23,008 bases of DNA. Source: a virus (Duplodnaviria; Heunggongvirae; Uroviricota; Caudoviricetes). The position numbers and the translations under genes are program-made. Each line of letters begins with the position of its first letter. Position 1 is the stretch's first letter. Shown piece by piece: positions 1-16,342 of this stretch. The notes under the pieces were generated by a model. It was not told where the DNA came from. It was given only the letters and a program-made list of their open reading frames with translations, and did not search any database. The DNA lies in the IMG/VR virus record IMGVR_UViG_3300029162_000080; one strand, given 5' to 3'.

Positions 1-126
1 CTGACGGCGCTTAGTGCTGAATTCACTATCGGCGAAGGTGAGTTGATGGCTCATGATGTCCCTCTGGGATGCGCTCCGGATGAATATGATGATCTCATAT
101 CAGGAACTTGTTCGCACCTTCCTTAG
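1..126 (+). CDS. 3' end of an unidentified ORF entering from the left window edge (partial)
   Basis: Frame 1 is open from nt 1 to a TAG at 124-126 (…GEGELMAHDVPLGCAPDEYDDLISGTCSHLP*). No homolog recognised; may be a junction remnant. Confidence 0.2.
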   Translation: MTALSAEFTIGEGELMAHDVPLGCAPDEYDDLISGTCSHLP

Positions 127-415
127 CATTCCTGTATACCTGAAACGACAATGTTTATCTACGAACTTTAAGAACACCCAAGATAAAAATTGTCAACTAT
201 ATCATATATAACACATTACTAATTCGAGGCTATATGAACAGCATACTGATAATCACATCTCTCCTTATCATATTCAGCATTTTTAGTCATGCCCTAATAA
301 AATTAGGGATTGGCATATCCAATAACCCAGACAAAACCGATGTATAAGTCAACATATCCTGAATCAGACATACAATATCGCAATGAAAATCAATAATATT
401 TTAAGGAATATCTTC

Positions 416-649
416 ATGAAATCAAAAGACACCCTAAAGTGGTTCCCTGCGCAGCTTCCTGAAGTAAGAATTATCCTAGGGGATGCTGTAGTGGAAGTAG
501 CAAAACAGGGAAGACCTATCAATACCAGAACATTGCTTGATTACATTGAAGGAAACATAAAGAAAAAATCATGGCTGGATAACAAAGAATTATTACAAAC
601 AGCGATATCAGTTCTTAAAGACAACCAAAATTTAAATGGTAAAATGTAA
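416..649 (+). CDS. ydfK: Cold-shock-induced small protein YdfK/YnaE family (77 aa)
   Basis: Translation MKSKDTLKWFPAQLPEVRIILGDAVVEVAKQGRPINTRTLLDYIEGNIKKKSWLDNKELLQTAISVLKDNQNLNGKM matches my recollection of K-12 YdfK/YnaE. AAGGAA Shine-Dalgarno about 9 nt upstream of the ATG at 416; the ORF-track start at 383 is probably too early. Confidence 0.75.
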   Translation: MKSKDTLKWFPAQLPEVRIILGDAVVEVAKQGRPINTRTLLDYIEGNIKKKSWLDNKELLQTAISVLKDNQNLNGKM

Positions 650-965
650 TATAATAAACTTACTTTTTTATCATTTTTCCACTTTAACAACATTTTGCTC
701 CACTTTTCCACGACCAAACAACTTGAAATCTGGTTAAAATAACACGCAACACTATTCTTCTTCCTTGAGTCCGCCCGGAACTCGAAAAACAAACCGAGTT
801 AAAGCCATTTTTCACAAAATCGATTTTGGGTCTCACCAAAATTACGGGGTTGCATACGCATTCGTTTATTTTCGAACGTGTACATACAAATATGCACAAA
901 AATAATCAAAATTATTTTCTGAGATGCATTATGATATGAACACCAATTTCGTATAGAGTCTCACT

Positions 966-1556
966 ATGTCTCGAATTTTTGCTTACTGTCGGATATCAAC
1001 GCTGGATCAGACCACCGAAAATCAACGCCGGGAAATCGAAAGTGCAGGTTTTAAAATCAAACCTCAGCAAATAATCGAAGAACACATTAGCGGCTCAGCA
1101 GCAACCAGTGAGCGTCCTGGTTTTAACCGGTTGCTTGCTCGCCTGAAATGTGGTGATCAATTGATTGTGACAAAACTGGATCGCCTTGGTTGTAATGCAA
1201 TGGATATCAGGAAAACAGTGGAACAACTGACCGAAACAGGTATCAGAGTGCATTGCTTAGCATTGGGGGGCATTGACCTGACCAGTCCAACAGGAAAAAT
1301 GATGATGCAAGTAATTTCAGCAGTCGCTGAATTTGAACGAGACCTTTTACTTGAACGCACTCATTCCGGGATAGTAAGAGCCCGGGGCGCAGGGAAACGT
1401 TTTGGTCGACCACCTGTGTTAAATGAAGAACAGAAACAGGTGGTATTCGAACGAATTAAGTCAGGTGTAAGTATAAGTGCCATTGCCCGGGAATTCAAAA
1501 CCTCGCGGCAAACCATTTTAAGAGCCAAAGCAAAACTTCAGACACCTGACATATAA
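966..1556 (+). CDS. Serine recombinase, Pin/resolvase-invertase family (196 aa; PinQ/PinR-like)
   Basis: N-terminal catalytic-serine motif ([11 protein letters not shown]), central KLDRLG motif, C-terminal HTH ([19 protein letters not shown]). Sits next to tfa/stf as in Pin-type tail-fibre inversion systems. The conserved Arg after KLDRLG is Cys here (see findings). Confidence 0.85.
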
Positions 1557-1653
1557 AAAATAATCTCGGTGTGAGATGCTTTACGTCTTCCAAGCCACCT
1601 TCCTTGCCGTAAATGGAAAGATACATCTAATTATAGAATTTATATGTTTTACC

Positions 1654-2229
1654 CTACGGCAGTGCTGGCCATTCAATATCCTGTGCAGTTGACGTATCAA
1701 CACGGTTCAGCAATACCCGATACTTTTTCCATGCTTCCAGCAACGAGATTTCTTCCTCCGTTGCAATTTCCAGATCTGCAGCATCCTGAAGCGGCGCAAT
1801 ATGCTCACTGGCTACCTGCATCAGGCTGTTTTTTGTTTCTTCCGCCTCCCGGATCCGGAACAGTTTTTCTGCTTCCGTATCCTTCACCCAGGCTGTGCCG
1901 TTCCACTTCTGATATTCCCCTTCCGGCGATAACCAGGTGACATTTTCCGGTAACGAGCCAAGTTCAGAAATAAATAACGCGTCGCCGGAAGCCACGTCAT
2001 AAACCGTTTTACCCCGATGATCTTCAACGAGATGCCACGATGCCTCATCACTGTTGAAAACAGCCACGAAGCCTGCCGGAATATCTGGCGGTGCAATATC
2101 GATACTGTTTGCTGGCAGACCTGTATGAGGCGGAATATATGCGTCACCTTCACCAATAAATTCATTAGTTCCGGCCAGCAGATTATAAATTTTTATGGTC
2201 CGTGGTTGTTCACTCATTCTGAATGCCAT
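1654..2229 (-). CDS. Tail fibre assembly protein (Tfa family, 191 aa)
   Basis: Immediately downstream of and overlapping the tail-fibre ORF. Sequence resembles lambdoid Tfa chaperones and has the length expected for TfaQ/TfaR-type proteins. Confidence 0.8.
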
Positions 2230-3596
2230 TATGCAAGCCTCACAATATAGTTAAATGCGATGTTTTTGACGGTGTTTTCCGCGTTACCAGCAGCGTTAAC
2301 GGTGATGGTATGTCCATGTGAACCAATCGCAACGGAGTGCGTATGAGCACCAATACCGACAGTATGTGCGTGTGCACCTGCGCTTGCAGCAGTACCCGAT
2401 ACAGAGTGCGTATGAGCGCCTGCAGAAGAAGTGTTAACACTGTATTTAGAATAATCAGGTGATCCACTTCCCGGAGCACCACTGGAACCACCTGAAACAA
2501 ATGTCATCGAATGGGTATGTGCACCGGCTGAAGCAGCTGTACCGCTAACACTATGGGTATGCGCACCAGTGTTATTCGTGGATTTAGTGCCGTAATCAAA
2601 CGACGATGTGGTTTTCGTCCCCAAATCCGTACTGGATACGCTGGCGCTGTGGGTGTGTGATTTAATGCCGTCCTGTTCCTGAGACAATACGGCTCGATCA
2701 CTGGCGGGCTTGCCCTTAATCGTCCAGCCACGCATATCAGGGATCACGCCTGACGGATAAGCGGCTGCAAGTTTCGGGTAAGCAGATTTGTCAAAAGTCT
2801 GCCCCTGCATCAGGGCATAACCAGACGGAACGGTATCTGATGGCCACGGGATTGGTGCACCGACTGGATAAAACTCTGCAGGAGGATGAGCCGAGGTGTA
2901 AAGCTGCGCCCACGGCGACCAGTTTGCGTCGGTCGTATCCCGTCGTGAACGAATAAATGCCGGAGCATGAGCACCGCTTGTACCACTCCAGCCGATGAGT
3001 AACTCACCTTCGCCAACGGCTGTCATCCCTTTCAGGTGAATGATATTTCCATACGCTGTTGGATATCCGTTGTTATACACCTCGTATAACTCAAGACCTG
3101 TTGCCCCCTGCGTATTGTCTGTCAGCGCGGTTATGCGCCCGGAAACCATCTGGGCAAACACCTCACCATCGCGCAGCCAGGTACGCAGCATCAGACGTTC
3201 CAGCATCGGACGGGTAAACTGCCCGGTGACCTCCGGACTGACAGACCATTCACTCCATCGGGTACGTATCTCCGCTGCCAGATCACGGGCAATGGCCCCA
3301 TTGCGTAATACCGGATGTGGCTCGACAATAATCCCGTTTTTCCCCACCACCCGTTCTTCCAGCTTGTCAAATACACCAATAACCAGATCGTGGTTGTTAT
3401 CAAGGTAACGGGCCTGCTCACGTAACGACACGGCCCCGTACTGGCTTAACTGGTCGGCAGTTCGGTTCTCCCGTCGGGCTTTGTGTGTCCGCGTCGTTTT
3501 TACGGCCTCATAAGCCTGGATCACCGCACGGGAACGCAGCCTTGCCGCTTTCCATCCTGGTGAAAAAACGCCAATCACATCATCAAGAATTGCCAT
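2229..3596 (-). CDS. Fusion ORF: portal-protein N-terminal fragment joined to side tail fibre C-terminal domain (stf-like)
   Basis: The C-terminal two-thirds carries the characteristic side-tail-fibre sequence ([33 protein letters not shown]…) with repeated GAHTHS/HxH motifs and the …[11 protein letters not shown] end. The N-terminal ~165 aa (…[19 protein letters not shown]…) occupy the position directly after gpW where the portal gene belongs, and resemble the lambda gpB N-terminus. Start taken as the ATG at 3596 overlapping the W stop; the ORF track extends to 3668. Confidence 0.7.
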
Positions 3597-3814
3597 CAGA
3601 ACCTCGCCAGCCGGTACCCGGGATGCCCACGTCGTCGTGTAATCAGAGCCGCAAGGCGGCGCTCCCACTCCTGCCGCCCCTGCCGGATCTCAGATAAGTT
3701 TTCCATGGTCATCTGCTGACCATTAAAAGTGACGGATTTTCCGTCCAGCACCGCCATTTCAGCTTCCGTATAACGCTGAATCATGGCTTCAATATCATTC
3801 TGATTCATAACCAT
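3596..3814 (-). CDS. Head-tail joining protein gpW-like
   Basis: 72-aa ORF between large terminase and the portal fragment. C-terminus …[15 protein letters not shown] resembles the lambda gpW end (…QRRRGPAGFYV). Overlaps the terminase stop. Confidence 0.6.
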
Positions 3815-5904
3815 CCTCCGGAAGTCAGCCAGGGGTTAACATCGTCAGTTACTGTTTTCTTCCGTTTTTGTTTTTTAACAGGCGTGGATACCGGTTCCGG
3901 TGAGGGTGACGGTTCGGTACTGTCCGGGACACACTCCAGCCAGGCTTCCCGGCTCGCCCACTCCGGTGCATCCGGCCAGCGGATCTTTTCGTATCCATGC
4001 AGAATGACCAGAGCCTCGGCATACACCATCAGGTCAAAAGCTTCGTTGGCACCGCGACCCGGCTTACTCCATTTCCCGTCACTGCTCCGCTCTTCATACG
4101 TCAGTTCGTCGTAAAACCAGCTCCCCAGCCAGTCAGGGAAATGCACATAGCCGGGACCTGGCGAGTCACGCCATAACGCGTTATTCACCCGGTCTTTCAG
4201 GGCATCCGTCTGAAGAAGCCAGAGCGGCACATCACCTGCGGCCTGCGCCCGTCGGCCCGTTCGTCCGGTGTTATCAGGGAATGTACGGGTTATCAGTTTT
4301 GCGCGCCGGATGCTGTCGCCCTTAAACAGGTAAATACGTTTACCAAGGCCATCACGACGGCAACGACGCCAGAATTTATAGGCATTATCAGTGACCCCGT
4401 CTTCACCGCCGGAGTCCACCGCCATTGCCATCAGTCGCATTTGTTGAGAAGGGTCGGAGGCCAGCGGCCAGCTTTTATGAAAAACATCCGTCAGCAGGAC
4501 ATCCCAGTCTTCCGGATAGCTGGCTGGATCAATTCGCTGGCTCTCCCCGTCGCTGTCACCGCGCAATGACTGCGTGATGTTGTAACGATCAATAATCCAG
4601 CGTTCGCCACGGCCGCCATAGCCCGTTACCTGAACCACAAAACGGCGATGACGTCCCGCCTGCACATCCACTGTCGCCACAAGGAAATTAACGCCATCCG
4701 GCACACTGCGGGAAGGAACTGGCTCTGCCCGCTGCTCAAGCAATTCACTTTTTCGTTGCTCCATGCTGGCACGAGGAAGATAAGGCAATCCCCAGTCGGT
4801 GTTGATAACCGCCCTGAGTGTTTCTTCGCTTCCTGTCGCTTCATACTCCTGTTCTGCAGTCAGTAATTTGTAAACCAGTTGCGCCCAGGTCTGATACGCA
4901 GCAGCTGGCCCTTCCATCCAGAAACTGGCGATACGGGAGCGGCGCGGTTCACCGGAAACGTTGCCGTTACGATCAATGACCTGCCCTTCACGCAACCAGA
5001 CTCCTGCACTATTGAGCTCACGCTTTTTCTCCGCAGTGATAATGCCGCTGCAGTGCGGGCAAAGTAGATACGCCGCCTCACTGGCTTTAAAGGGATCCGG
5101 TTCATTACGGTAGCCGGTCATGGCATCCATGGCTGGCTGAAAATATTCACCGCAGTGCGGACATGGCCAGTACCAGCGGCGGCGGTCACCACGATTGTAA
5201 AGGGAAAGAATACCAGTCGTCGGTGGCGCTTCATGAGGCGACTTACGTCGCCATTTGCTGTCGCAGATGTCACGTCCCGGCGAGCTCTCCACCAGAGTCA
5301 TCCCGGCGGACATAAATGTGGTGGTACGTTTTGAGGCCAGGGAGAAACCATCACCCTCGCTGTCGATATTCTCCGGAAAACGGTCGTAATCGGTTAAGGC
5401 GACAAACCGGTAATCCGACGACGACATAATGTTGACCGAGGGCCAACCAATTTTAAGGAACGAGCCATCCCTGAACGTCTTATCATGGACATTATTGTCG
5501 TTACGACGTGGACTCATTCTTTTCTTTACCGCCGCACTGCTTCTGAACGTTCTGTCGAGGCGCTTTTTAGAATGCTCGCGGGCCTTATCTTCGGTCATCT
5601 GCACAACGAGCATGTCCGAAGGATCGCAAACGATGGTATAGACAATCCATCCATCGATCAGACCAATGGTCTTCCCTGTTCGCGCAGGACCAACAAAAAT
5701 CACCGCATCGTATTCACGCGATGCCAGGCAGTTCATGGGCTCAATGATGTAGGGTGTCAGTTCAGGATCCCATGGCACCGAGTTACCAGCCCCCTTGGGA
5801 ACACGCATGAATTTTTTAACAGCCTCCGAAATCGGCATGCGACGTGGTGGGGAAAATCCTGCCGATATGTCCCTTCCCAAATTTCGGGCTGATGAAAAAC
5901 CCAT
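3805..5904 (-). CDS. Terminase large subunit (lambda gpA family)
   Basis: 699-aa ORF with a Walker-A-like GPARTGKT and a CPHCG zinc-finger-like segment (WYWPCPHCGEYF, cf. lambda gpA ACPHCGEE). Located between the small terminase and W; overlaps the upstream gene end. Start may be an internal Met. Confidence 0.8.
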   Translation of the reverse strand: MGFSSARNLGRDISAGFSPPRRMPISEAVKKFMRVPKGAGNSVPWDPELTPYIIEPMNCLASREYDAVIFVGPARTGKTIGLIDGWIVYTIVCDPSDMLVVQMTEDKAREHSKKRLDRTFRSSAAVKKRMSPRRNDNNVHDKTFRDGSFLKIGWPSVNIMSSSDYRFVALTDYDRFPENIDSEGDGFSLASKRTTTFMSAGMTLVESSPGRDICDSKWRRKSPHEAPPTTGILSLYNRGDRRRWYWPCPHCGEYFQPAMDAMTGYRNEPDPFKASEAAYLLCPHCSGIITAEKKRELNSAGVWLREGQVIDRNGNVSGEPRRSRIASFWMEGPAAAYQTWAQLVYKLLTAEQEYEATGSEETLRAVINTDWGLPYLPRASMEQRKSELLEQRAEPVPSRSVPDGVNFLVATVDVQAGRHRRFVVQVTGYGGRGERWIIDRYNITQSLRGDSDGESQRIDPASYPEDWDVLLTDVFHKSWPLASDPSQQMRLMAMAVDSGGEDGVTDNAYKFWRRCRRDGLGKRIYLFKGDSIRRAKLITRTFPDNTGRTGRRAQAAGDVPLWLLQTDALKDRVNNALWRDSPGPGYVHFPDWLGSWFYDELTYEERSSDGKWSKPGRGANEAFDLMVYAEALVILHGYEKIRWPDAPEWASREAWLECVPDSTEPSPSPEPVSTPVKKQKRKKTVTDDVNPWLTSGGWL

Positions 5905-5912
5905 TATTCCTC

Positions 5913-6452
5913 CTAGAGACTCTCTCCTTCCTCATCAGGAATTATTTCAGCAGCACAAGCCTCGTAGGATTTTTCCTGAAGAGTGTATCGCAGGTCATCA
6001 ATGGCCTGCTGTACAACGCCGACGGCCTGAGGAGTCAGGGCGCAATCGCGTTCAAGAACATCCGGAATTGTCTCCAGAACCTGGACGACAGCCTTTCTCA
6101 TGGACGAATAGACGATGACTACTTCATCAACGGGGATGAGTTTTCGCTGCTCCTTTTCCAGCTTGATTCTTTCATTTTCAGACTGGTACCAGTCCTTTCT
6201 CTCTTTCGGCTCCATACGGGATGGATCATGAACAGAGTCTGCTGCCTCATGCTTCACACTAAACAGGGCAGGCCCGACATGCTGCAGGGCGTAAACGGGG
6301 TTCCCCCTGACAGTCGCAGCCACAGGAGTGTTGGCCGCGAGGAGCCGTTTTTTTACTGTGTCCCGGTGAAGCCCAAAGGCCTCGGCGATTTTAAAAACAC
6401 TCCAGTAATAAGCATCACTGATCCCGCTCACATTTGACATAAGCAACTCCAT
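5913..6452 (-). CDS. Terminase small subunit (putative)
   Basis: 179-aa ORF immediately upstream of and overlapping the large terminase, with an N-terminal HTH-like segment (DAYYWSVFKIAEAFGLHRDTVKKRL). Lies about 190 nt downstream of the cos-like site, as in lambda Nu1. Confidence 0.6.
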   Translation of the reverse strand: MELLMSNVSGISDAYYWSVFKIAEAFGLHRDTVKKRLLAANTPVAATVRGNPVYALQHVGPALFSVKHEAADSVHDPSRMEPKERKDWYQSENERIKLEKEQRKLIPVDEVVIVYSSMRKAVVQVLETIPDVLERDCALTPQAVGVVQQAIDDLRYTLQEKSYEACAAEIIPDEEGESL

Positions 6453-6617
6453 CTGGCAGGTGAAAATCAGGTTTATTTATATATTTCAATTAATTGCAAA
6501 CTGGTCTAATGACAGGGAGAAAAAAATATTGTACAGGTGAAAAGAGAAATAACTTTTAATTATCAATAAATTACCAAACATGCTGCCGCCGCCATGGAAA
6601 TGCAAAAACTAGCCTTT

Positions 6618-6642
6618 TTCCGCGACGCTCCCGCCCCGTGGC
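6618..6642 (-). other. cos-like cohesive-end site (cosN-like)
   Basis: Minus-strand reading ACGGGGCGGGAGCGTCGCGGAAAAAGGCTA aligns with lambda cosN ACGGGGCGGCGACCTCGCGGGTTTTCGCTA (recalled from memory), with the same spacing to the small terminase start. Confidence 0.5.
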
Positions 6643-7002
6643 AGGGACCCCCACTGGGAGGACCCGACAGCCTGACAACCGTGACGAGCATCTGAAACAG
6701 AGCGTTACATAATGGCATGGGGATAATTCAGAAGGACATCACAGCATGCCCACACAAATTAGTGTGAGTGTCCTGTTTCTTACTACGCGCAGGACTGACG
6801 AGCATGAGGGGAAAATACGCGAACCGAAATGCCTTATCTTCAGAAATGCAGCCGGCATCCGAACTGGACGATATTGTAAATTCACCTAAATACGAGGCAT
6901 TGCTGTAGTTGAATTGCAGTACTGTATTAGCCTTACAGTGACAGAATACGATATTGACTCTGTCACTTGTGAAATGGTCAGAATGGTTAGCAGTTATGGT
7001 GA

Positions 7003-7209
7003 TCAGTCAACCACCAGGGAATAATCCTTCGTATTCTTATCGTGCTTTACTAACGCGGCCTCAATTGCCCTGAATGCTTCCAGAGATACTTGATGTTCTA
7101 TACATGCAATTACAACATCCGGGTAACCCATCGAAATGGTGCTATTAAGCATAGTTTTTACACGAACCTGCTCCTGGGAGGGGGCATCAGTGTATTGATC
7201 TTTATGCAT
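7003..7209 (-). CDS. Hypothetical small phage protein (possibly YnfO/YbcW-like by position)
   Basis: 68-aa ORF between terminase and gnsB; assignment by synteny with K-12 Qin/DLP12 only. Start may be the internal Met ([10 protein letters not shown]…). Confidence 0.4.
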
Positions 7210-7504
7210 TTTGTCGCTCCATTCGTTTGCTCTTCACTTGCGGCTAAAAATATAACGTCAAATCACTCAGCATGAAAGAGTGAAAGTTTCAGCGCGTTTC
7301 CCTTACATAATCTGTCGTTTGTATTCTCTTCAGGCATACCGGAAAGACTAGGTATTGTCACACAACCAATACCATCGACAATCGAGATTTATATCTATTC
7401 GGTAATGTTTAAATATAACAAAACCCCGTAAAAACGAGGTTTATGGGTAATTTGTATTGTTGAATAGCATCTGATGAGAAATTGATGCTAATACTATAAA
7501 CATG

Positions 7505-7678
7505 CTAGATTAAATCAATCTTGATATCATAGCTTTCAAGACCAGTCATTTTTTCCCGTGCAGTAAACTGGATACTGGTAACTTCTTTCCCGGTCTTTTT
7601 CTTAAGCTCAATGATTTTTTTTGTTATATATTCAGAAATATCTGCTTCTGCTTTTGTTTTTAACTCTTCAATGTTCAT
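7505..7678 (-). CDS. gnsB: GnsA/GnsB family protein (57 aa)
   Basis: Translation MNIEELKTKAEADISEYITKKIIELKKKTGKEVTSIQFTAREKMTGLESYDIKIDLI matches the GnsA/GnsB family from memory. GAGGAA Shine-Dalgarno directly upstream of the ATG at 7678; the ORF-track start at 7771 is probably too early. Confidence 0.8.
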   Translation of the reverse strand: MNIEELKTKAEADISEYITKKIIELKKKTGKEVTSIQFTAREKMTGLESYDIKIDLI

Positions 7679-7850
7679 CATTTCCTCTTTTAGTCTGTTA
7701 TGACTGTCCTGGTACACAGTAGTGTCAATTATATGGAGCAAACGTATAAAAGATAAGATGAAACATCGCAATAATCAACATACGACGGTCTAAATTTCAC
7801 ACAAACAGATAAAGATGATTATCATTTATTATCAATGCATTAGAATCAAA

Positions 7851-8081
7851 TCAATTCAAGAGTCTCATTGCTGCTTCCAGAATTTCTTCTGAAGTTACAT
7901 GTCGATCCGCTGCTACATAAATGACTTTATGATCTCCGGTCAGAGATGGAAACCCTGCAGCCATTACAGTGAGGTGTGTTGTTTCGCCATTTGGATATTC
8001 ACGCATGATGGTGTTAACTCCGGTCATCACTGGCACTACCATTGCTGGTTCAGAGTTAAAAAAAACTATTATTTTTTTCAT
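7851..8081 (-). CDS. Hypothetical protein (76 aa; occupies the ynfN position)
   Basis: ORF between gnsB and cspI. Start taken at MKKIIVFF…; no family recognised. Confidence 0.4.
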   Translation of the reverse strand: MKKIIVFFNSEPAMVVPVMTGVNTIMREYPNGETTHLTVMAAGFPSLTGDHKVIYVAADRHVTSEEILEAAMRLLN

Positions 8082-8352
8082 AATGTTACCGTAATATGTG
8101 AGTATCCATCGACTAGACACTAAGCAAAAAAGCTCCCGAAGGAGCCTTCATTTTCACTTTCTTAAATCTAACGACAGATGGCTAACATTTAAGTATTGTG
8201 AAATATTATCAAATGTAATCATCATTGATTTACAAAAGATACATTTTGCCCCGAAAGGATTTCTGTCAGAAACATCAAAAGATGATGTTCTATACTGAGA
8301 ACCATGGCAACACGGGCATCTAAAGTGAATATGGTTTGTAATATTTTCTACC

Positions 8353-8565
8353 TCAAAGTGCCACTACATGAACAGCTGCAGGGCCTTTAGGTCCGTTCTC
8401 AATACCAAATTCGACTTCCTGATTCTCAGTTAACGTTTTGAAATCGTTGCTCTGAATAGCTGAGAAATGCACAAACACATCTTTGCTACCATCTTTCGGC
8501 GTGATGAAACCAAAACCTTTTTCAGGGTTAAACCATTTCACTAAACCAGTCATTTTGTTAGACAT
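8353..8565 (-). CDS. cspI: Cold shock protein, CspA family (CspI-like)
   Basis: [70 protein letters not shown], with RNP1-like KGFGFI and RNP2-like VFVHF motifs. Long AT-rich 5' leader upstream, as in csp genes. Confidence 0.9.
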
Positions 8566-8928
8566 CATTATTACCTTTTGAAGAAGTTAGCCCTTGGGCA
8601 GAATGGTCCGAAAAAAAATATCAGAGAGAAAAACCAACAAGGAAATCTCAAGAGGTACAAATAATAAAATTATAACAATGACTGCTTCAGATAATTTTGT
8701 AACAAACCAGAACACCATTAACGCATGATTAACCAACCATAGCAAGGATTACTTTTGTAAAGAAAAACACACGAATGAAACAATAGCTTTATTTATTAAT
8801 AAAACGTGTCATTCTGTCTAATGACCTTTTATCTTACCCTTAAGATTTCAAGGATTTTGACTCATGGAAGAGTCCTTTTTATTTAAATTTCACATTCAGC
8901 GCTAAAAATAATCCGATTTAATATTAAT

Positions 8929-9435
8929 CTACATCTGATATTTTTTATCTCTTAAAGATTCATAAATCCGTTGACAAGTCACTCCTGCGATGTAGCGTTT
9001 GTCAGCAATTTCAGCAATTTCAGCATAAAGCTGAGCTTCTGCTGCAATATCTCCGAGCATGTTGGTGAGCATTCCTTCGGCGGCTTTGGTTGTTTTGCCT
9101 CTGACGGCAGCGGCAAGATTTGCGGTATGCTGCGCTGCGTCAAGGCGTATGGCATATTTTGTTGCTTCGGCACGCAGCTGGTTAACACTATCAGACAGAT
9201 CAGCAGCCCTGGCAGAAATTTCAGCGGCTTTCTGTTGTGCATCTTTAACAGCCTCATCACGGGATATACTTCGCCCCTGTTCAATTATTCGAGCAGCAAA
9301 TTGGACATTTACCTCTTGAGATAATTCGGCAGCATCACGCTCCGCCCATTTTTTTTGCCATCCTCTGTCGCTCCAGACATTACCTACGACAAATCCTACC
9401 AACACGAGCAAAATCACCGTGAATATCTGATTCAC
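8929..9435 (-). CDS. Spanin inner-membrane subunit (Rz-like i-spanin)
   Basis: 168 aa with N-terminal TM ([15 protein letters not shown]) and a coiled-coil-rich periplasmic part. Directly downstream of the endolysin with a 4-nt overlap; contains an embedded +1-frame lipoprotein ORF. Confidence 0.85.
8979..9257 (-). CDS. Spanin outer-membrane lipoprotein subunit (Rz1-like o-spanin), embedded in Rz
   Basis: Alternate-frame ORF wholly inside Rz. Signal peptide with lipobox (…[11 protein letters not shown]) followed by a Pro-rich mature region. Start ambiguous (ATG at 9257 or 9242). Confidence 0.7.
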
Positions 9436-9965
9436 TGTTCTATCCCCCAGCAGGTTAATGCACTCTCCTGGTCACGACGAATAACCTGACCGTAACAATT
9501 ATTTGAACGAATGCGGCAATCACGTCCACCGTCCTTTATCCACCAGCGAATCGCCTCGCATGCGCCTTTACGATCACCGGCATTAAGCCGCTTATAAAAC
9601 GTCGACGGAAAACACTTACCAGGGCCAATGTTATAGGGACAGAATGACGCGATACCGGCTTTCTGTGGCTCGGTCAGTGGAACTTTTATATTGCGCTCCA
9701 CCCATGCCAGCGCCTTATCACGCTCAATGGCGTTGACCTGGTCGCATTTTTCCTTCGACAGTTTCATATTGGGAAAAACGTTTTTTCCATCCACCACTGT
9801 GGCACCCCGACAGATGGTCCATATGCCAGAACCATCGCGGTATGCCATTGTGTGGTTACCTTCTTTTTCGTCCAGAAACTGGTCAAGTATCTGAGGAGCA
9901 GATGCGCCAGCACCAATCAGCGCCAGAACGGCAGCCGACAGGCCGTACCTGATTTTTGTGTTCAT
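9432..9965 (-). CDS. Endolysin, phage lysozyme (T4-lysozyme-like) with N-terminal SAR domain
   Basis: 177 aa with a weakly hydrophobic Gly/Ala-rich N-terminus ([16 protein letters not shown]) typical of signal-arrest-release endolysins, followed by an E…D…T catalytic pattern ([20 protein letters not shown]). Position between the YdfR-like gene and Rz. Confidence 0.85.
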
Positions 9966-10273
9966 ATATATTTATGATGAGGACGCTCGTGCTTATTGGC
10001 AGGATTTTCAATCTTAAAGGAGTACTGATGCTGCAGATAAGACTCAACTTTTTCTGACGATTTTTCTGCTACTTCCAGGAAGACTTGCCGGACGCTCCTT
10101 CTGGCTGCTGCCTCATAAAACTCCAGCGCAGCTCCTTCAACACGGTCCATGGCGACATCCAGGTCAAAAATTTCACCGTCAAAGCGTTCTTTGTCCTGTA
10201 AGGCTACAGTTACCGTAACTTTATTCTCAAAATTACGGACTCCTTTCACAACCAGTTCATAGTCTTGAGTCAT
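9962..10273 (-). CDS. Hypothetical protein in lysis cassette (YdfR-like by position and length, 103 aa)
   Basis: ORF between holin and endolysin with ATGA overlap to the endolysin; same position and length as K-12 ydfR. Confidence 0.6.
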   Translation of the reverse strand: MTQDYELVVKGVRNFENKVTVTVALQDKERFDGEIFDLDVAMDRVEGAALEFYEAAARRSVRQVFLEVAEKSSEKVESYLQHQYSFKIENPANKHERPHHKYI

Positions 10274-10277
10274 TGGA

Positions 10278-10493
10278 TTACTCTCCTCTCGCAGCCTTAC
10301 GCCTGTCTTCTTTAATCTTGAAATAAAGATTTGTCAGATACGTCAGCAGGCCAAAAACCAGGCTACCCAGCACACCGATTGCAGCCCACTGTGACGGAGT
10401 TACTTTATCGAGTAACTGCAATGCCCAGAAACCAGCATTACCCGCCGATGTGCCATAGGCAACACCTGTTGTTAACTTATCCATTGATTTCAT
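10278..10493 (-). CDS. Holin, phage 21 S-type pinholin family, dual-start (71 aa)
   Basis: [71 protein letters not shown] resembles S21 pinholin, with the Met1-Lys-Ser-Met4 dual-start motif and two TM helices. GGTGAGGA Shine-Dalgarno upstream. The ORF-track N-terminal extension to 10568 is probably not translated. Confidence 0.85.
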
Positions 10494-10712
10494 ATCCTCA
10501 CCCCGATGTACACGGATGGTGCAATATGTTTGAAAAGATCGGAGTCTACGGGGTAGTTTTGACAGCACACGCTGTTCTCAACGGCGCTAAAGAAACATAC
10601 ACATTAAAAATGTGAGTAATTATTTTGAAAGAAAGTCATATATAAAATAATAATACGAGAAATGTTTTCATATTTAGTGTACTGTATACGGCCATTTATA
10701 CAGGAAAAGCCT

Positions 10713-10883
10713 ATGTCAGAACGTAAAGACTCAAAATCACGCCGTAATTATCTCGTTAAATGTTCCTGCCCAAACTGCACCCAAGAGTCAGAACACAGTT
10801 TTTCAAGAGTACAAAAAGGTGCCCTTTTGATCTGCCCTCATTGCAACAAAGTATTCCAGACAAATCTTAAAGCTGTAGCCTGA
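10713..10883 (+). CDS. Small zinc-ribbon protein (hypothetical, 56 aa)
   Basis: Two CxxC pairs (CSCPNC … CPHCNK). AGGA about 9 nt upstream of the ATG at 10713. Oriented against the late operon (moron-like) and followed by a hairpin. Confidence 0.45.
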   Translation: MSERKDSKSRRNYLVKCSCPNCTQESEHSFSRVQKGALLICPHCNKVFQTNLKAVA

Positions 10884-10930
10884 TTGATTTTATTAGTAAC
10901 AAGTATTTTTTATATTTTAATAATATATTT

Positions 10931-10955
10931 AAAGCAGATAATAAAAAACCCGCCT
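10931..10955 (-). terminator. Rho-independent terminator (minus-strand reading; hairpin usable from both strands)
   Basis: Stem AAACCCGC / GCGGGTTT with loop CTGA; on the minus strand it is followed by TTTTTTAT. Confidence 0.6.
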
Positions 10956-11246
10956 GAGCGGGTTTGAGATTGTGGTGCTTTTTGTGGGAGTCATCCACTT
11001 ACGCACTTTGTTTTGCCATGCCAGCAGTTAGCTTCTGCTGTAAAACTATTCATGCAGCAAACCTGCACTTCACCACAATGGTTAGCATACTTTTCCTGAT
11101 TAAGATTTTGCCAAATATGCTGGCCATTGTTTCATGTATTGGACCTCCTTAATTTTTATTAAAGAAATCCAATATTCACTACTCTGTCCGTATCTCTACT
11201 CAGGCATCAGCCTTCTTCGTTATCGTATACAGACGAGCGATGAATT

Positions 11247-11462
11247 TTAATCAGTAATGATGACATTTGCTGCTGCAGGACCTTTAGCACCACTCTCTAT
11301 AGAGAAGGTAACCTTTTGACCTTCAAATAAGGTTCGATAATTATCATTCTGAATCGCAGAAAAATGCACAAACACATCTTTACTACCATCAACAGGAGAA
11401 ATAAAGCCGAAACCTTTATCAGCGTTAAACCATTTTACTAAACCAGTCATTTTATTTGACAT
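11247..11462 (-). CDS. cspB: Cold shock protein, CspA family (CspB-like)
   Basis: [71 protein letters not shown]; divergent from the adjacent cspF-like gene, as in K-12 Qin. Confidence 0.9.
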
Positions 11463-11762
11463 TCTACATTCCTTAACTTGAGCCTTTCGGCATAAATGGT
11501 TTGCATAACAGAAACGACTTCGTACTTAATTGGAGAGACTCAAAGAAGGAATAAGTGAATAACACCTGAAATGAGAACTGCTTTAGTAAACTACTTCGTA
11601 TATCGTCTGTTCTTCAAACCGACGCAATCATTAACGCATAGTTGAACATATGAAGCAATGTTTATTTTAGACATCCAGCCATCTTCAACCCCATCAAAAA
11701 ACTATAGCTTTCTTCAGGAACGTGTGTATAGTGCGCCAAGTTATCAGTATTAAGGAATTTTT

Positions 11763-11975
11763 TTGTCCCGTAAAATGACAGGAATTGTCAAAACCTTTGA
11801 CGGCAAAAGCGGCAAGGGTCTTATCACCCCATCCGATGGTCGTATCGATGTCCAGCTTCATGTTTCAGCGCTCAATCTCCGCGATGCAGAAGAAATTACC
11901 ACCGGATTACGCGTGGAATTTTGCCGGATAAATGGTCTGCGTGGCCCTTCAGCTGCCAATGTTTACCTTTCATGA
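11763..11975 (+). CDS. cspF: Cold shock protein homolog, divergent CspF/CspH type
   Basis: [70 protein letters not shown]. The annotated start is a TTG; an in-frame ATG follows at 11775. Confidence 0.85.
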
Positions 11976-12266
11976 GCTATATTAAAGCTTTAATTTCAGG
12001 CCCCATCGGATCACACATGGAGAGTTTTTATGAATAACCCCGTCTGTCTTGATGACTGGTTGATTGGCTTTAAAAGCTTATGCTGTACTTTGGCCGTAAT
12101 AGCTCTGCTAATAATATAATAAGCAGACTCATTGTGTTTAGGGACATTGTACTGGAAGAAAACATTTTAAACATCAGGCAAATAACCAAGTCACCAGCTA
12201 AATAATAAGTTAACAGACATGAGTCCCGGGATGAGATTCAACATTACCATTGCCCCATTTAAAGCA

Positions 12267-12300
12267 CAAAAACCCGCTTATAAGCGGGTTTTCTACTTTT
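12267..12300. terminator. Bidirectional rho-independent terminator (perfect 24-nt palindrome), candidate tR' for the late transcript and terminator for cspF
   Basis: AAAACCCGCTTATAAGCGGGTTTT is self-complementary; T-rich tracts follow on the plus strand (TCTACTTTTTTTC) and U-rich sequence follows on the minus strand. Confidence 0.7.
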
Positions 12301-12323
12301 TTCTAAACATCGGATACACAAAG

Positions 12324-12368
12324 CCCATCGTTGAGAAAATCTTATCCATGTTTTTTGAAAAATGCAAA
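12324..12368 (-). promoter_or_regulatory. Late promoter pR'-like with qut-like element downstream of Q
   Basis: Minus-strand reading TTTGCA, 18-nt spacer, TAAGAT, then 5 nt and CAACGATGGG, which parallels lambda pR' (…TAAATT tgact CAACGATGGG…) as recalled. Lies between the Q stop and the palindromic terminator. Confidence 0.5.
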
Positions 12369-12398
12369 CATCATGTCGCCATCTTCAGCAAAAATCAT

Positions 12399-13151
12399 TT
12401 ATCTCGTCACCTTCCTCAATTGCGCTTCCGCGTATGCTTCTTCCTGCCAGCACTTTGTTACCAGTTTACCAATGACGTCCGCATACCCCTTATACCACTG
12501 ATAATCGGTCAGGTCTGGTACCAGCTTCTGGACATGACGTCGTGCCAGCGTGGTCGGTAAACGACTAAACCGGTTTCCATTACAACGCCCACAAATCTTA
12601 TATACCGGTACGCCATGAAACCGGGTTCTTTTTTCATCCAGAACAATCCCTTTACCCTTACACCCTCTGCACGCTGTGCTGACTTCGCCCTTACCATGGC
12701 AATGCTGATATAGTTCCTTCACCCATTCTTCCTTGATTACAGATTCCCCGCGTCTGTAGTGTTTCACCACTTCGCGCAATACATTATAAAATCCCGTACC
12801 TGAACAATGCTCACAGCGAGCCTTACTTGCCGCAGACCTGGAGTAATCAGCAAAGGCAAAATTCACGAGGTAAGGAATAATCTGTAACCGGATTTCTTCA
12901 CTCAATTTGTTCAATGTCGGGTTATCCAGTGCCATCGCGTAATTTAGCAGGCCTTCAATCGCAAACTGAGCGTCCTGAACACCAACTTTTGCCAGAAATA
13001 AGGCCAACCCAAGTGGTGCTTTCGACTGCACCATCCCCTGCGCTGCCATTACATCCGTAATTGTTAAACAACCGGTGCCTGTCGCTGGAGCGTCATCGCT
13101 CAATTTTGGAGATTTTGGGGAGTAATATTTTGGTAAGGCTTCAAGGTTCAT
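12399..13151 (-). CDS. Late-gene antiterminator Q (phage 82/21-type; QuuQ-like, 250 aa)
   Basis: Cys-rich zinc-binding segments (CEHCSGTGF, CRGCKGKG, CGRCNGN). Immediately upstream of the pR'-like promoter, terminator and lysis genes. Start taken at MNLEALPKYY (ORF track extends to 13181). Confidence 0.75.
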   Translation of the reverse strand: MNLEALPKYYSPKSPKLSDDAPATGTGCLTITDVMAAQGMVQSKAPLGLALFLAKVGVQDAQFAIEGLLNYAMALDNPTLNKLSEEIRLQIIPYLVNFAFADYSRSAASKARCEHCSGTGFYNVLREVVKHYRRGESVIKEEWVKELYQHCHGKGEVSTACRGCKGKGIVLDEKRTRFHGVPVYKICGRCNGNRFSRLPTTLARRHVQKLVPDLTDYQWYKGYADVIGKLVTKCWQEEAYAEAQLRKVTR

Positions 13152-13164
13152 GCTCGTTCTCCAC

Positions 13165-14214
13165 TTACGCCAGTACGCCAATTGCCAGCGCGCGATCGAT
13201 AAAACGAAATATCAGCTCCAGTTGGGAGCCATACTTCTCTTCAAATGCTACTGTATCCGTATGCAGCTCGTTGTGATGCTTTCTGCACAAAGGCAACACA
13301 AAGAGATCATGTGCTTTTGTTCCCATTCCGCCCTGCCCGTGACCAATCAGATGATGCGGATCGTCGGCTGGCATACCGCAGCAAGCACACGGCTGTGTCT
13401 TAACCCAACGTGTGTATTTCTCCTTAACCCAGCGGCGACGTTTAGGCAGCTTCATGAAAGATTCCGGAGTCTCTGGATCAACGGTGATGCTTACCACCGT
13501 CTTTTCCTGTGGTGTTTTTTGTTGCTGGTGGGCGTAAGGCAACGGTGCAAGATTTTTTGTGCGTTGTTTCAATATGCTGGTGGCGGTCTGCTCTCCCGGT
13601 ACGATGTCGCTTTCGCGGTACACCGAGCAGATTTTTTCCGCTGGTAATCCCAGCGAACGACGCGATACAGCCTCAGGTAGTGCATCCACCACCTGATTGC
13701 AGACCGCCCACCAGGATAATTCAGCCAAAGATAATTCCCGCTCCTGCGTACCGCTTATTGCGTGACGGATGACGTCAATCATCCATGCTGACAAGTTTTG
13801 GTGAGCAAGTTGCTCAAGTGATTCGGAGGTCTGGTCACGCAACTGGTTGTCGCAGTACCAGCACAACACCATTGCGCCGGTACCATAACGGTGAATGACG
13901 GTTTCACTGTGGTGATAATCGCCGTGTGGCCACTGGCAGGATTTAATATGGCGCAACAGCCAGTCAGACAATGCACCAGCACCACCAGCAGCACGAATCA
14001 CCCGTGCGTTACTGAAAAACGGCAGCAATGTTTTGTCTTCCACCAGCGGCTGGCGAACGGCAGGAACGACCCCGGACGGCAGATTACGCATGCTTTTCGG
14101 TTCCGGCTCCACCAGTACCCGGGTATTGTGGAATACCGGCATGGATTCACGGCCCGGCTTAACGATCACCAGCCCGAGTTCCGGTACCAGAACAGGTCGA
14201 AGTAATACCCGCAC
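13165..14214 (-). CDS. YdfU-like protein (349 aa) with C-terminal HNH-like Cys/His motif
   Basis: Same length and position as K-12 ydfU (upstream of Q). C-terminal CACCGMPADDPHHLIGHG … CRKHHNELH resembles an HNH/zinc-binding motif. Confidence 0.6.
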   Translation of the reverse strand: MRVLLRPVLVPELGLVIVKPGRESMPVFHNTRVLVEPEPKSMRNLPSGVVPAVRQPLVEDKTLLPFFSNARVIRAAGGAGALSDWLLRHIKSCQWPHGDYHHSETVIHRYGTGAMVLCWYCDNQLRDQTSESLEQLAHQNLSAWMIDVIRHAISGTQERELSLAELSWWAVCNQVVDALPEAVSRRSLGLPAEKICSVYRESDIVPGEQTATSILKQRTKNLAPLPYAHQQQKTPQEKTVVSITVDPETPESFMKLPKRRRWVKEKYTRWVKTQPCACCGMPADDPHHLIGHGQGGMGTKAHDLFVLPLCRKHHNELHTDTVAFEEKYGSQLELIFRFIDRALAIGVLA

Positions 14215-14215
14215 G

Positions 14216-14494
14216 TTACCTCCAGATCCGTTGCTGGTATGTGCGGGATGAACGCGGTGGGCGTTCGGAGTAAGGGAGTCTGACTGAGATTATCCAGTGA
14301 CGGTAGTCGAGGCTAAGAGCTTTCTTAACCTCGTATCCGCGCCTGCGGTAACACTGAATTATCCATTCCGCCTGCTCTTCAGTGCATGGAGGATGCTGGA
14401 ACCAGTCTGATTTGAATGCGTGAAAACGCCGTCCGCACCTACTGGCAAAGACGGCAGAATCATTAGAATTGTGTAATTTGGTATCGTGCGCCAT
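14216..14494 (-). CDS. Hypothetical protein (92 aa; occupies the rem position between hokD and the ydfU-like gene)
   Basis: ORF MAHDTKLHNS… tightly packed (1-nt gap) with the downstream ydfU-like gene. The upstream part of the ORF-track entry (to 14623) overlaps the hokD terminator and is unlikely to be coding. Confidence 0.5.
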   Translation of the reverse strand: MAHDTKLHNSNDSAVFASRCGRRFHAFKSDWFQHPPCTEEQAEWIIQCYRRRGYEVKKALSLDYRHWIISVRLPYSERPPRSSRTYQQRIWR

Positions 14495-14562
14495 CGGTTG
14501 TCTCTGCTGGCGCAGCAGGTGCCAGTTGTTCAGGCTGGCGTGCGAATTGTAAACCAGAATGC

Positions 14563-14593
14563 CAGGAAAAAACAAAACCCGCCGAAGCGGGTT
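14563..14593 (-). terminator. Rho-independent terminator downstream of hokD
   Basis: Stem AACCCGC / GCGGGTT with loop CGAA, followed on the minus strand by TTTTGTTTTTTCC. Confidence 0.75.
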
Positions 14594-14661
14594 ACGTGCG
14601 GGTGCGTTGAGGATGCCTGACACATCAGAGGTGGCGAGGGATTTCTCCCTCGCCGGGTCTC

Positions 14662-14817
14662 TTACTCCTCAGGTTCGTAAGCTGTGAAGACAGCGACCTC
14701 CGTCTGGCCGGTTCGGATTCGTACCTCGCAGAGGTCTTTCCTCGTTACCAGTGCCGTCACTATGACGGTTAAACAGATGACGATCAGGGCGATTAACATC
14801 GCCTTTTGCTGCTTCAT
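14662..14817 (-). CDS. hokD: Hok-family type I toxin (HokD/RelF-like, 51 aa)
   Basis: MKQQKAMLIALIVICLTVIVTALVTRKDLCEVRIRTGQTEVAVFTAYEPEE matches HokD from memory: single TM helix followed by the conserved Hok periplasmic tail. Confidence 0.85.
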   Translation of the reverse strand: MKQQKAMLIALIVICLTVIVTALVTRKDLCEVRIRTGQTEVAVFTAYEPEE

Positions 14818-16237: not shown

Positions 16238-16342
16238 CACCAAGTAAGGCATAGAATTTTATTAACCAAGGAGCATATGACCAGTAATTAATTCTTACCG
16301 GAAAGTTAGCCCTGCTAAAATTAATATTAACAAATAAAAAAA

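What the first reader, a model, noticed from the sequence alone, without database searches (positions are those of the whole stretch)
2229..3814. Portal-N-terminus::tail-fibre-C-terminus fusion ORF marks deletion of the entire head/tail morphogenesis block
Directly after gpW, where the portal gene begins in lambda-like phages, the ORF starts with a portal-like N-terminus, but after roughly 165-190 codons (junction near nt 3100-3170) it continues in frame as a side-tail-fibre C-terminal domain with GAHTHS/HxH repeats, followed by tfa. Head, tail-tube, tape-measure and J genes are therefore missing. The terminase genes and cos are retained, which differs from my recollection of K-12 Qin. The fusion keeps an intact frame and could be expressed.
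Basis: partly seen in the sequence, partly recalled or inferred. Interest (0 to 1): 0.45.

Follow-up and report, generated by a model that had tools for sequence, protein, structure and literature searches.

The report
Portal–tail-fibre fusion at deletion hotspot
This ORF is a leftover chimera made when a defective Qin-type E. coli prophage lost about 18 kb of head and tail genes; that is ordinary prophage decay, but the tail-fibre end of the deletion falls on the same nucleotide as at least 17 other independent deletions, including the one in E. coli K-12.

Summary

**The fusion.** On the minus strand, a 455-aa CDS (2229-3596) joins two gene fragments:
- Residues 1-155 come from a lambda-family portal. 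They are 98.7% identical to an intact 502-aa portal.
- Residues 708-1007 come from a side tail fibre. They are 99.7% identical to an intact 1007-aa Stf.

The join lies at a shared TA (window 3132-3133). tfaQ and pinQ follow the CDS. A W-like gene, an intact gpA-type large terminase and a DUF1441 small terminase precede it.

**The locus.** This is the Qin cryptic prophage at ydfJ. All head, tail, J, lom and stf-N genes are missing, roughly 18 kb.
- K-12 Qin differs: it fuses nohA (Nu1) to stfQ.
- This exact junction is absent from 5,426 complete E. coli genomes.

**Unexpected result.** The stf-side breakpoint (…TA|ACCGCGCTGACAG) is nucleotide-identical in at least 18 independent deletions. Their other ends lie in Nu1, terminase, portal, protease, capsid, Z, tape measure, lom or intergenic DNA.
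- Only 5 large deletions end elsewhere in 2.9 kb of stf-N.
- No inversions were found.
- No invertase (pix), att, IS or cos site, CRISPR-spacer match or hairpin explains it.

**Reading.** The chimera is an accidental in-frame pseudogene; across the deletions, fusion frames are spread 4:6:4. The hotspot's mechanism is unresolved.

The parts
966..1556 (+). pinQ, a serine DNA invertase, convergent with tfaQ
   Evidence: Pfam Resolvase (E = 2.5e-36) plus HTH_7. Annotated pinQ in the syntenic loci.
1654..2229 (-). tfaQ, tail fibre assembly chaperone, 191 aa
   Evidence: Pfam Caudo_TAP, E = 1.9e-43. 98.9% nucleotide identity to the K-12 tfaQ region.
2229..3596 (-). Chimeric portal'::'stf CDS of 455 aa. 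The ATG at 3596 overlaps the W stop codon.
2229..3131 (-). stf-derived part: Stf residues 708-1007 plus the stop codon. It carries the Collar domain and the HxH fibre repeats.
   Evidence: 99.7% aa identity to the ATCC 8739 Stf. Nucleotide homology to K-12 stfQ and to L282 ends at 3133/3134.
3132..3133 (-). TA dinucleotide shared by both parents. This is the crossover point and the recurrent stf deletion hotspot.
   Evidence: The native portal reads ...GGGCGCA TA AACAGCC. The native stf reads ...GGTCGGG TA ACCGCGC. The same stf nucleotide is used in at least 18 distinct deletions.
3134..3596 (-). Portal-derived part, covering portal residues 1-155 of 502
   Evidence: Pfam Phage_portal_2, profile positions 3-125 of 354. 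98.7% identity to the intact APEC O78 portal.
3596..3814 (-). gpW-like head-tail joining gene, 72 aa
   Evidence: The position between TerL and portal is conserved in APEC O78, KV7 and SCU-115. The only Pfam hit is a weak one to DUF6148.
3805..5904 (-). Large terminase, gpA family, intact at 699 aa
   Evidence: Pfam GpA_ATPase (E = 4e-81) plus GpA_nuclease (E = 5e-86). Same length as the annotated homologues.
5913..6452 (-). DUF1441 protein in the small-terminase position
   Evidence: Pfam DUF1441, E = 1.7e-44. Synteny shown.

Best explanation
**What it is.** The ORF is a by-product of prophage decay.

**Shown:**
- The window is a Qin-family cryptic lambdoid prophage at the E. coli ydfJ locus.
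- One deletion of roughly 18 kb joined portal codon 155 to stf codon 708. It removed the rest of the portal, the protease/capsid, connectors, tail tube, tape measure, tip/J, lom and the N-terminal 70% of stf.
- The join is non-homologous. It occurs at a TA dinucleotide present in both parents, with weak flanking similarity (portal TAAaCagCCTGAC, stf TAACCGCGCTGAC).

**Inferred about the product:**
- The 455-aa chimera is in frame by chance.
- It cannot act as a portal, because it has only the first 31% of that protein.
- It cannot attach to a virion, because it lacks the Stf N-terminus.
- At most it would be made, together with TfaQ, as a free receptor-binding fragment if late transcription from the Q-dependent promoter reads through.

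**Shown about the stf-side end:**
- It is not random. The same nucleotide (…GGTCGGG-TA|ACCGCGCTGACAG) is the end of at least 18 independent leftward deletions, including K-12's nohA|stfQ, and of one rightward deletion.
- All junctions fall within a 2-bp register.
- Most partner sites carry TA.

**Inferred about the mechanism (about 0.4 confidence for this step):**
- These deletions start with a site-specific strand break or strand exchange at that TA, within the near-palindrome CGGgTAaCCG.
- The freed end is then joined, guided by the 2-nt TA, to look-alike sites elsewhere in the late operon.
- The responsible activity is not identified.
For: **Identity of the two halves and the junction**
- Pfam gives a partial portal, then Collar and the fibre repeat.
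- BLASTP gives 98.7% and 99.7% identity to the intact portal and Stf.
- Nucleotide alignments break exactly at 3133/3134.

**Locus identity and missing genes**
- Synteny ydfK-pinQ-tfaQ-…-gnsB-cspI-rzpQ-…-intQ matches K-12, APEC O78 and ATCC 8739.
- ATCC 8739 carries the full late operon.

**Uniqueness**
- No complete E. coli genome covers at least 80% of a 301-nt junction probe.
- The junction is absent from the IMG/VR, GTDB and metagenome scans.

**Hotspot**
- Ten E. coli loci with different partners share the breakpoint.
- 183 anchored sites gave 19 non-native contexts, which collapse to about 17 partner positions, and all are joined at the same base. L154, found via the +320 anchor, adds one more.
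- In the collinearity survey, about 18 distinct junctions lie at -2..0, against 5 deletions over 1 kb that end elsewhere in 2.9 kb of stf-N.
- Deletion sizes range from 2.2 to 21.1 kb.
- One rightward event uses the same TA.
- TA is present in 11 of the 14 reconstructed native partner sites. Its background frequency is 3%.
- The four junctions whose reconstructed partner lacks TA carry either parent's dinucleotide: L005 TG→TG, L154 CA→CA, L053 TT→TA, L006 TG→TA.
- Partner sites resemble the stf site more than random lambda TA sites do, on both sides (P about 0.003).
- Fusion frames are spread 4:6:4, so there has been no selection for an open frame.
Against: - No enzyme, site family or DNA structure explaining the hotspot was found.
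- The 2-bp register could also arise from TA-microhomology joining after a replication stall. The data do not separate that from enzymatic exchange.
- Sampling was partly anchored right next to the hotspot. Endpoints to its right were therefore seen only through other probes, which did find some (+61, +64, +373).
- Native partner sequences for several junctions are taken from relatives (lambda, ATCC 8739), not from the actual ancestors.
- No intact relative with the window's own head module was examined. The roughly 18 kb size is therefore inferred from the lambda-type relative, where the equivalent portal-to-stf distance is 18.6 kb.
- Expression of the chimera was not tested.
Confidence: 0.88

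Rival explanations
1. The chimera is a domesticated, functional gene. A free StfC receptor-binding fragment, folded with TfaQ, would be kept because it blocks adsorption of other phages. The deletion endpoint would then be shared because that product is selected.
For: PinQ-driven inversion in prophage e14 creates a short chimeric Stf fragment (StfE2) that blocks T2 adsorption (PMC12529663). The stfC-tfaQ-pinQ block is retained at 97-99% identity in many strains. The window ORF has an SD sequence and an ATG coupled to the W gene.
Against: Junction frames are spread 4:6:4. Many junctions put a stop codon (TAA) at the join or shift the frame, so StfC is usually not translated from the upstream gene. 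Selection cannot fix an endpoint to the nucleotide, because any endpoint further upstream in stf-N would keep the same product. There were no PADLOC hits.
Confidence: 0.07
2. The deletions were made by the neighbouring DNA invertase (PinQ, or PinR/PinE acting in trans). It would recombine a crossover-site-like sequence in stf with quasi-sites, as Sandmeier proposed for tail-fibre module exchange.
For: - pinQ lies 1.6 kb away and is an active recombinase (PMC12529663).
- The hotspot sits just upstream of the Collar domain, the same relative position as the crossover sites of invertible tail-fibre segments (PMC4134206).
- The exchange is confined to 2 bp and partner sites share the dinucleotide. 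This is typical of serine recombinases and of Cin quasi-sites (Iida and Hiestand-Nauer 1987, cited in PMC4134206).
- A stretch 5 bp upstream matches gix at 15 of 26 positions (my own alignment).
Against: - Centred on the observed TA, the site has almost no similarity to the 26-bp TTnTCnnAAACC-nn-GGTTTnnGAnAA consensus.
- The gix-like alignment puts the centre at TC, 5 bp from the real junction.
- There is no pix-like site and no second copy of the motif in the window or in the intact locus.
- There are 0 inversions among about 19 events, whereas invertases favour inversion.
- The hotspot is also used in a prophage with no adjacent pin (L008).
Confidence: 0.07
3. Replication-arrest template switching. 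Forks or repair synthesis pause at this position in stf. The nascent 3' end, which ends in …GGTTA, re-anneals at short look-alike sequences ahead and skips the DNA in between. This would resemble the deletion hotspots described at Ter sites.
For: - Only deletions are seen, never inversions.
- One end is fixed and the other is variable.
- Similarity to the stf site extends into the deleted side of partner sites: TAtCCG, TAACCGCGtTG and TAAaCagCCTGAC.
- There is a precedent for a fixed endpoint at a fork barrier (Bierne, Ehrlich and Michel 1991, from memory).
Against: - No predicted stable structure exists at the site (z = -1.0).
- Similarity to Ter is limited to GTAAC (my own alignment).
- Similarity is also seen on the retained side of partner sites, which this model does not require.
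- L005 and L154 join with no terminal homology at all.
Confidence: 0.25
4. The hotspot is not real. The shared endpoint would reflect common descent of one old deletion plus later recombination, or a bias in how the loci were collected.
For: Many records are clonal; for example, K-12 derivatives dominate the nohA-type hits. Several scans used an anchor immediately to the right of the site.
Against: - Eighteen different partner positions lie in at least 10 different genes and in two unrelated head-module types. They cannot derive from one another without re-creating the same endpoint.
- The anchor-based scans can see any endpoint to the left of the site, yet found only 5 other large deletions in 2.9 kb.
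- An independent probe centred on the site gave the same picture in complete genomes.
Confidence: 0.03

Closest known systems
E. coli K-12 Qin cryptic prophage, nohA (nohQ)-stfQ-tfaQ-pinQ segment
   Same: - Same chromosomal locus (ydfJ).
- Same stfC-tfaQ-pinQ-ydfK block at 96-99% identity.
- Same stf breakpoint nucleotide.
- Same kind of object: a truncated stf left by deletion of the morphogenesis genes.
   Different: - K-12 joins lambda-type Nu1 codon ~177 to stf, out of frame, and lacks the terminase large subunit, W and portal.
- The window has a different packaging module (DUF1441 plus gpA-type TerL), keeps it intact, and joins portal codon 155 in frame.
- Window 14832-21848 (early region) also differs from K-12.
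Lambda-family portal protein (gpB, Pfam PF05136)
   Same: The first 155 residues match profile positions 3-125 and are 98.7% identical to an intact E. coli prophage portal.
   Different: Only 31% of the protein is present. About 230 of the 354 profile positions are missing, so it cannot be a working portal.
Lambdoid side tail fibre Stf (StfR/StfQ, mEp460-type) with Tfa chaperone
   Same: The C-terminal 300 residues are 99.7% identical to intact Stf and include the Collar domain, the HxH repeats and the adjacent tfa. The same sequence occurs in isolated phages such as mEp460 and PhiR26_1.
   Different: It lacks the N-terminal 707 residues that include the tail-attachment domain and the repeat-rich shaft.
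Fixed-endpoint deletions made by a site-specific activity: Int-promoted lambda b-region deletions ending at attP, Cin recombination with quasi-cix sites, and Ter-site deletion hotspots (all from memory; the Cin work is cited in PMC4134206)
   Same: One endpoint is fixed to the nucleotide, the other is variable with only partial resemblance, and the short crossover sequence is shared.
   Different: The stf site matches none of the corresponding recognition sequences. The Qin att core is GAAATCCATAA. The 26-bp invertase consensus is given. Ter was compared by my own alignment. No responsible protein is known.

Membership tests
Phage portal protein, lambda family (PF05136) | Significant match to the family profile | tested here: met
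   E = 8.1e-23, 81.6 bits against a cut-off of 32.9.
Phage portal protein, lambda family (PF05136) | Full-length domain (about 354 profile positions; about 500-aa protein) able to form the dodecameric ring | tested here: not met
   Only profile positions 3-125 are present. Only residues 1-155 of a 502-aa homologue remain. This is a fragment, not a member in the functional sense.
Lambdoid side tail fibre (Stf) | C-terminal receptor-binding region with the Collar domain and HxH fibre repeats, followed by a Tfa chaperone gene | tested here: met
   Collar E = 3e-12. Phage_fiber repeat present. 99.7% identity to Stf 705-1007. tfaQ lies directly downstream.
Lambdoid side tail fibre (Stf) | N-terminal tail-attachment domain and shaft (a full-length protein of about 1000 aa) | tested here: not met
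   Residues 1-707 of the 1007-aa reference are absent.
Qin cryptic prophage of E. coli | Integration at ydfJ with the flanking order ydfK-pinQ-tfaQ-stf … gnsB-cspI-rzpQ-rrrQ-essQ-cspB-cspF-ydfT-ydfU … intQ | tested here: met
   Collinear blocks at 95-99% identity to K-12 1632779-1644601 and 1651549-1652708. Annotated synteny appears. ydfJ itself lies outside the window.
DNA-invertase (Din: Gin/Cin/Pin/Hin) crossover site | 26-bp imperfect palindrome TTnTCnnAAACC-nn-GGTTTnnGAnAA with strand exchange at the central dinucleotide | tested here: not met
   There are no AAACCnnGGTTT or TTCTCCCAAACC matches near the junction. Centred on the observed TA, the half-sites do not match the consensus.
DNA-invertase (Din) crossover site | A second site in inverted orientation, with inversion products observed | tested here: not met
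   The window holds only one copy of the motif. All 19 rearrangements are deletions.
Integrase secondary attachment site | Resemblance to the prophage att core | tested here: not met
   The Qin att core GAAATCCATAA is unrelated to GGTCGGGTAACCGCG. The hotspot is used in prophages at other integration sites.
Type I-E CRISPR self-targeting deletion | A chromosomal spacer matching the protospacer next to the AAG 8 nt upstream of the TA | tested here: not met
   A 35-nt PAM-plus-protospacer query hit only stf genes (one weak 28-nt hit in a hypothetical gene) in 5,426 genomes. Other registers and strands were not tested.

The most novel reading that the evidence does not exclude
The TA inside CGGGTAACCG of this widespread stf allele would be the target of a so far unrecognised site-specific DNA breaking or joining activity. 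Candidates are a nuclease, a type IA topoisomerase-like cleavage (there is a C four bases 5' of the cut on both strands), or a recombinase with loose partner choice. This activity would repeatedly amputate the morphogenesis genes of lambdoid prophages while sparing stfC-tfa-pin. On this reading, decay of Qin-, Rac- and DLP12-type prophages, including K-12's, is partly a directed process rather than random erosion.
Probability: 0.3. Interest if true: 0.7.

Novelty: new member of a known kind. Interest (0 to 1): 0.4.

Why it matters
The fusion on its own is just one more allele of prophage decay. Its main practical value is as an annotation warning, because RefSeq labels similar chimeras 'phage portal protein'.

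The shared breakpoint is the more interesting result. If confirmed, it would show that loss of head and tail genes from lambdoid prophages in E. coli is channelled through one nucleotide position. That points to a specific DNA transaction that can be tested in the laboratory using available phages and strains. It would also explain the long-known structure of K-12 Qin (nohA next to stfQ).

Tried and rejected
- **Pin/pix crossover site.** Pattern searches found nothing at the junction. The literature consensus does not fit.
- **Repeats around stf.** No inverted or direct repeat pairs with the site.
- **Hairpin or cruciform at the site.** The DNA fold is unremarkable: -14.1 kcal/mol, z = -1.0.
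- **Lambda cosN.** No match in the window. A 6+6-nt resemblance of the site to GGTTAC…CGACCT has the wrong spacing.
- **Qin att core as a secondary Int site.** The sequences are unrelated.
- **IS element at the junction.** None of about 19 partner flanks is an IS end. The IS2 and IS903B copies in some strains lie elsewhere.
- **CRISPR spacer against the site.** None found.
- **Module boundary in intact fibres.** Lambda stf does not share the boundary. All but one of the stf-N flanks continue into the same stf-C.
- **KV7 junction in a second stf family.** It turned out to be a 10-14-nt homology event, which is uninformative.
- **Other comparisons by eye.** Ter, dif/XerC, RuvC, IS608 TTAC, integron GTTRRRY and BstEII-type sites did not fit.
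- **Sandmeier, Iida and Arber 1992.** The paper could not be read.
- **Literature searches.** No prior description of the shared breakpoint was found.
Full report
**1. The observation**

The feature lies on the minus strand. The ORF listing reports an ORF at 2229..3668 that begins at an upstream GTG. The biological start is the ATG at 3596. It overlaps the stop codon of the preceding 72-aa W-like gene (TGATG) and has a GAGG Shine-Dalgarno sequence 6 nt upstream. The CDS is therefore 2229-3596 and encodes 455 aa.

Pfam finds three things:
- A lambda-family portal match restricted to profile positions 3-125 of 354 (E = 8e-23).
- A Phage Tail Collar domain (E = 3e-12).
- The HxH 'Phage_fiber' repeat.

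Against intact relatives:
- The N-terminal part is 98.7% identical to the start of the 502-aa portal of E. coli APEC O78.
- The C-terminal part is 99.7% identical to residues 705-1007 of the 1007-aa side tail fibre of E. coli ATCC 8739.

At nucleotide level:
- The sequence is portal-derived down to 3134.
- The TA at 3133-3132 is present in both parents.
- The sequence is stf-derived from 3131.
- The product is therefore portal 1-155 plus Stf 708-1007.

**2. Context**

Downstream of the fusion lie tfaQ (1654-2229) and the convergent invertase gene pinQ (966-1556). Upstream lie the W-like gene, an intact gpA-family large terminase (3805-5904) and a DUF1441 protein in the small-terminase position (5913-6452).

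The window is collinear with the K-12 Qin prophage at three stretches:
- 123-3134, covering ydfK to stfQ.
- 7368-14831, covering gnsB to hokD.
- 21849-23008, covering intQ.

Window 3135-7367 and 14832-21848 have no K-12 counterpart. ATCC 8739 carries a lambda-type version of this prophage with the complete late operon from nohA to stf-tfaQ-pinQ. This shows what has been lost here. By analogy the deletion is about 18 kb; the equivalent portal-to-stf distance in ATCC 8739 is 18.6 kb.

Three corrections apply: the strand, the inclusion of gpW in the interval, and the unverified status of cos (no lambda cosN match).

**3. Uniqueness**

No complete E. coli genome out of 5,426 covers at least 80% of a 301-nt probe across the junction. 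The junction is also absent from the IMG/VR, GTDB-representative and metagenome scans. Other strains carry other junctions at this locus.

**4. The unexpected finding: a shared stf breakpoint**

I aligned the stf side of several strains. In each, the stf-C sequence starts at the same nucleotide, while the upstream partner differs:

| Locus | Upstream partner |
|---|---|
| window | portal |
| APEC O78 | ClpP protease |
| strain 81 | Nu1 |
| NT1F34 | TerL |
| strain 33-6 | lambda-type portal |
| ET729 | lom |
| P377 | capsid |
| GDSC2227PM | intergenic DNA |

K-12 MG1655's own nohA|stfQ junction is at the same base.

I then scanned IMG/VR, GTDB and metagenomes with the 28-29-mer immediately to the right of the site.
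- This raised the total to 183 sites.
- 150 of them have the native stf context.
- The non-native contexts, plus L154, collapse to about 18 distinct partner positions.
- The partners are Nu1 (two positions), lambda A (two), gpA-type TerL, lambda portal (two), window-type portal, ClpP protease, capsid E (three), Z, a V-like region, tape measure, lom (two) and intergenic DNA.
- Deletion sizes range from 2.2 to 21.1 kb.
- All partners are in the same orientation as stf, so these are deletions. No inversion was seen.

Further support:
- A collinearity survey of all anchored loci against ATCC 8739 found only 5 other deletions over 1 kb that end anywhere in the 2.9 kb of stf-N, at -2313, -771, -696, -637 and -575.
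- One deletion uses the same TA in the opposite direction, joining stf-N to the middle of tfa.
- A probe centred on the site shows 807 genomes with an intact site. Most partial matches start exactly at the TA.
- Endpoints to the right of the site exist but are scattered, at +61, +64 and +373.
- Isolated phages such as mEp460 and PhiR26_1 carry the intact site.

**5. Anatomy of the junctions**

In every case the partner contributes sequence up to position -3, and stf contributes from position 0 (ACCGCG…).

The two bases between are TA in almost all products.
- Reconstructed native partner sites carry TA in 11 of 14 cases. TA has a frequency of only 3% in the lambda late region.
- Where the reconstructed partner dinucleotide differs, the product carries one parent's or the other's: L005 TG→TG, L154 CA→CA, L053 TT→TA, L006 TG→TA.
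- The exchange is thus confined to a 2-bp register.

Partner sites also resemble the stf site (CGGgTAaCCG) more than random lambda TA sites do, on both sides (P about 0.003).

The reading frames of the 14 coding-partner junctions are spread 4:6:4. This spread shows no selection for open fusions, so the window's intact frame is best read as chance.

**6. Mechanism**

What is shown is a non-homologous deletion joined at a shared TA, with a recurrent and nucleotide-precise stf endpoint.

What is inferred is that these events start with a site-specific break or strand exchange at that TA, followed by TA-guided joining to look-alike sites.

I tested and rejected the following explanations:

| Candidate | Result |
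|---|---|
| Neighbouring invertase | No pix or gix-like site at the crossover, no second site, no inversions; hotspot also used without an adjacent pin |
| Secondary Int site | att core GAAATCCATAA is unrelated |
| IS elements | None at any junction |
| CRISPR spacer | None found |
| cosN | No match |
| Stable hairpin | Fold unremarkable |

PinQ itself is an active recombinase on the e14 pix sites (PMC12529663).

A replication-pause and template-switch model remains a serious rival.

I noticed one further pattern. Both strands carry a C four bases 5' of the putative cut (CGGG↓TA and CGGT↓TA). This is the known preference of type IA topoisomerases (from memory). I could not test it.

**7. Comparison with known systems and verdict**

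The object is a new allele of a well-known kind: a deletion remnant in the Qin cryptic prophage, equivalent to K-12 stfQ.
- It is a fragment of a portal and a fragment of a tail fibre, and a functional member of neither family.
- The fusion itself deserves low interest.
- The shared breakpoint was not found described in four full-text searches. It deserves a systematic census and a simple laboratory test.
- My overall interest score is 0.4.

Noticed in passing
window 16379-17825 (minus strand): A two-gene CBASS-type anti-phage system sits in the prophage early region. It consists of a SMODS oligonucleotide cyclase (16938-17825; Pfam E = 2e-50; PADLOC cyclase E = 5e-144) and a SLATT_4 two-transmembrane effector (16379-17017; E = 6e-74). 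This region has no counterpart in K-12 Qin.
   Followed up: partly
window 14832-21848: This early/immunity region differs from K-12 Qin, which has relBE, flxA, dicCA, dicF and dicB there. The window instead has a DUF977 protein (18387-18809), a 613-aa protein with a C-terminal Rv2179c-like 3'-5' exonuclease domain (19528-21369), and strong AT-skew swings at 19000-21000.
   Followed up: partly
window 21713-23008 and 15878-16237: The ORF of an IntQ-type tyrosine integrase is open for 431 aa and runs to the last base of the window. K-12 intQ is a pseudogene interrupted by IS2. A second, short integrase fragment (119 aa) lies at 15878-16237.
   Followed up: partly
L005 1780-3114 (NZ_CP050031.1) and L286 930-2828 (NZ_CP054368.1): Other in-frame portal::stf chimeras are annotated in RefSeq as ordinary 'phage portal protein' (WP_094322473.1 and WP_250884555.1). 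K-12 stfQ (b1547) is likewise annotated as a 320-aa protein whose first codons come from nohA-derived DNA. These names mislead.
   Followed up: partly
L282 (ATCC 8739), about 575-770 nt upstream of the hotspot: A looser second cluster of homology breaks and deletion endpoints (-575, -594, -614, -634, -637, -696, -717, -727, -771) lies in the repeat-rich shaft region of stf-N. It probably mixes repeat-number mosaicism with true deletions.
   Followed up: no
L123 (IMG/VR), at the hotspot position: A diverged but intact stf allele reads GGTCGGCTGACCGCC at the hotspot, so it has no TA. It is a natural control allele for testing whether the TA is required.
   Followed up: no
L206 (JAEWTL010000011.1): A contig of a MAG labelled 'Bacillota bacterium' carries the exact E. 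coli lambdoid stf 28-mer. This is most likely contamination or mis-binning.
   Followed up: no
window 3134-3144 (minus strand): The portal-side flank GGGCGCATAA matches the XerC arm of dif (GGTGCGCATAA, from memory) at 9 of 11 positions. Other partner sites do not share this, so it is probably coincidence.
   Followed up: no
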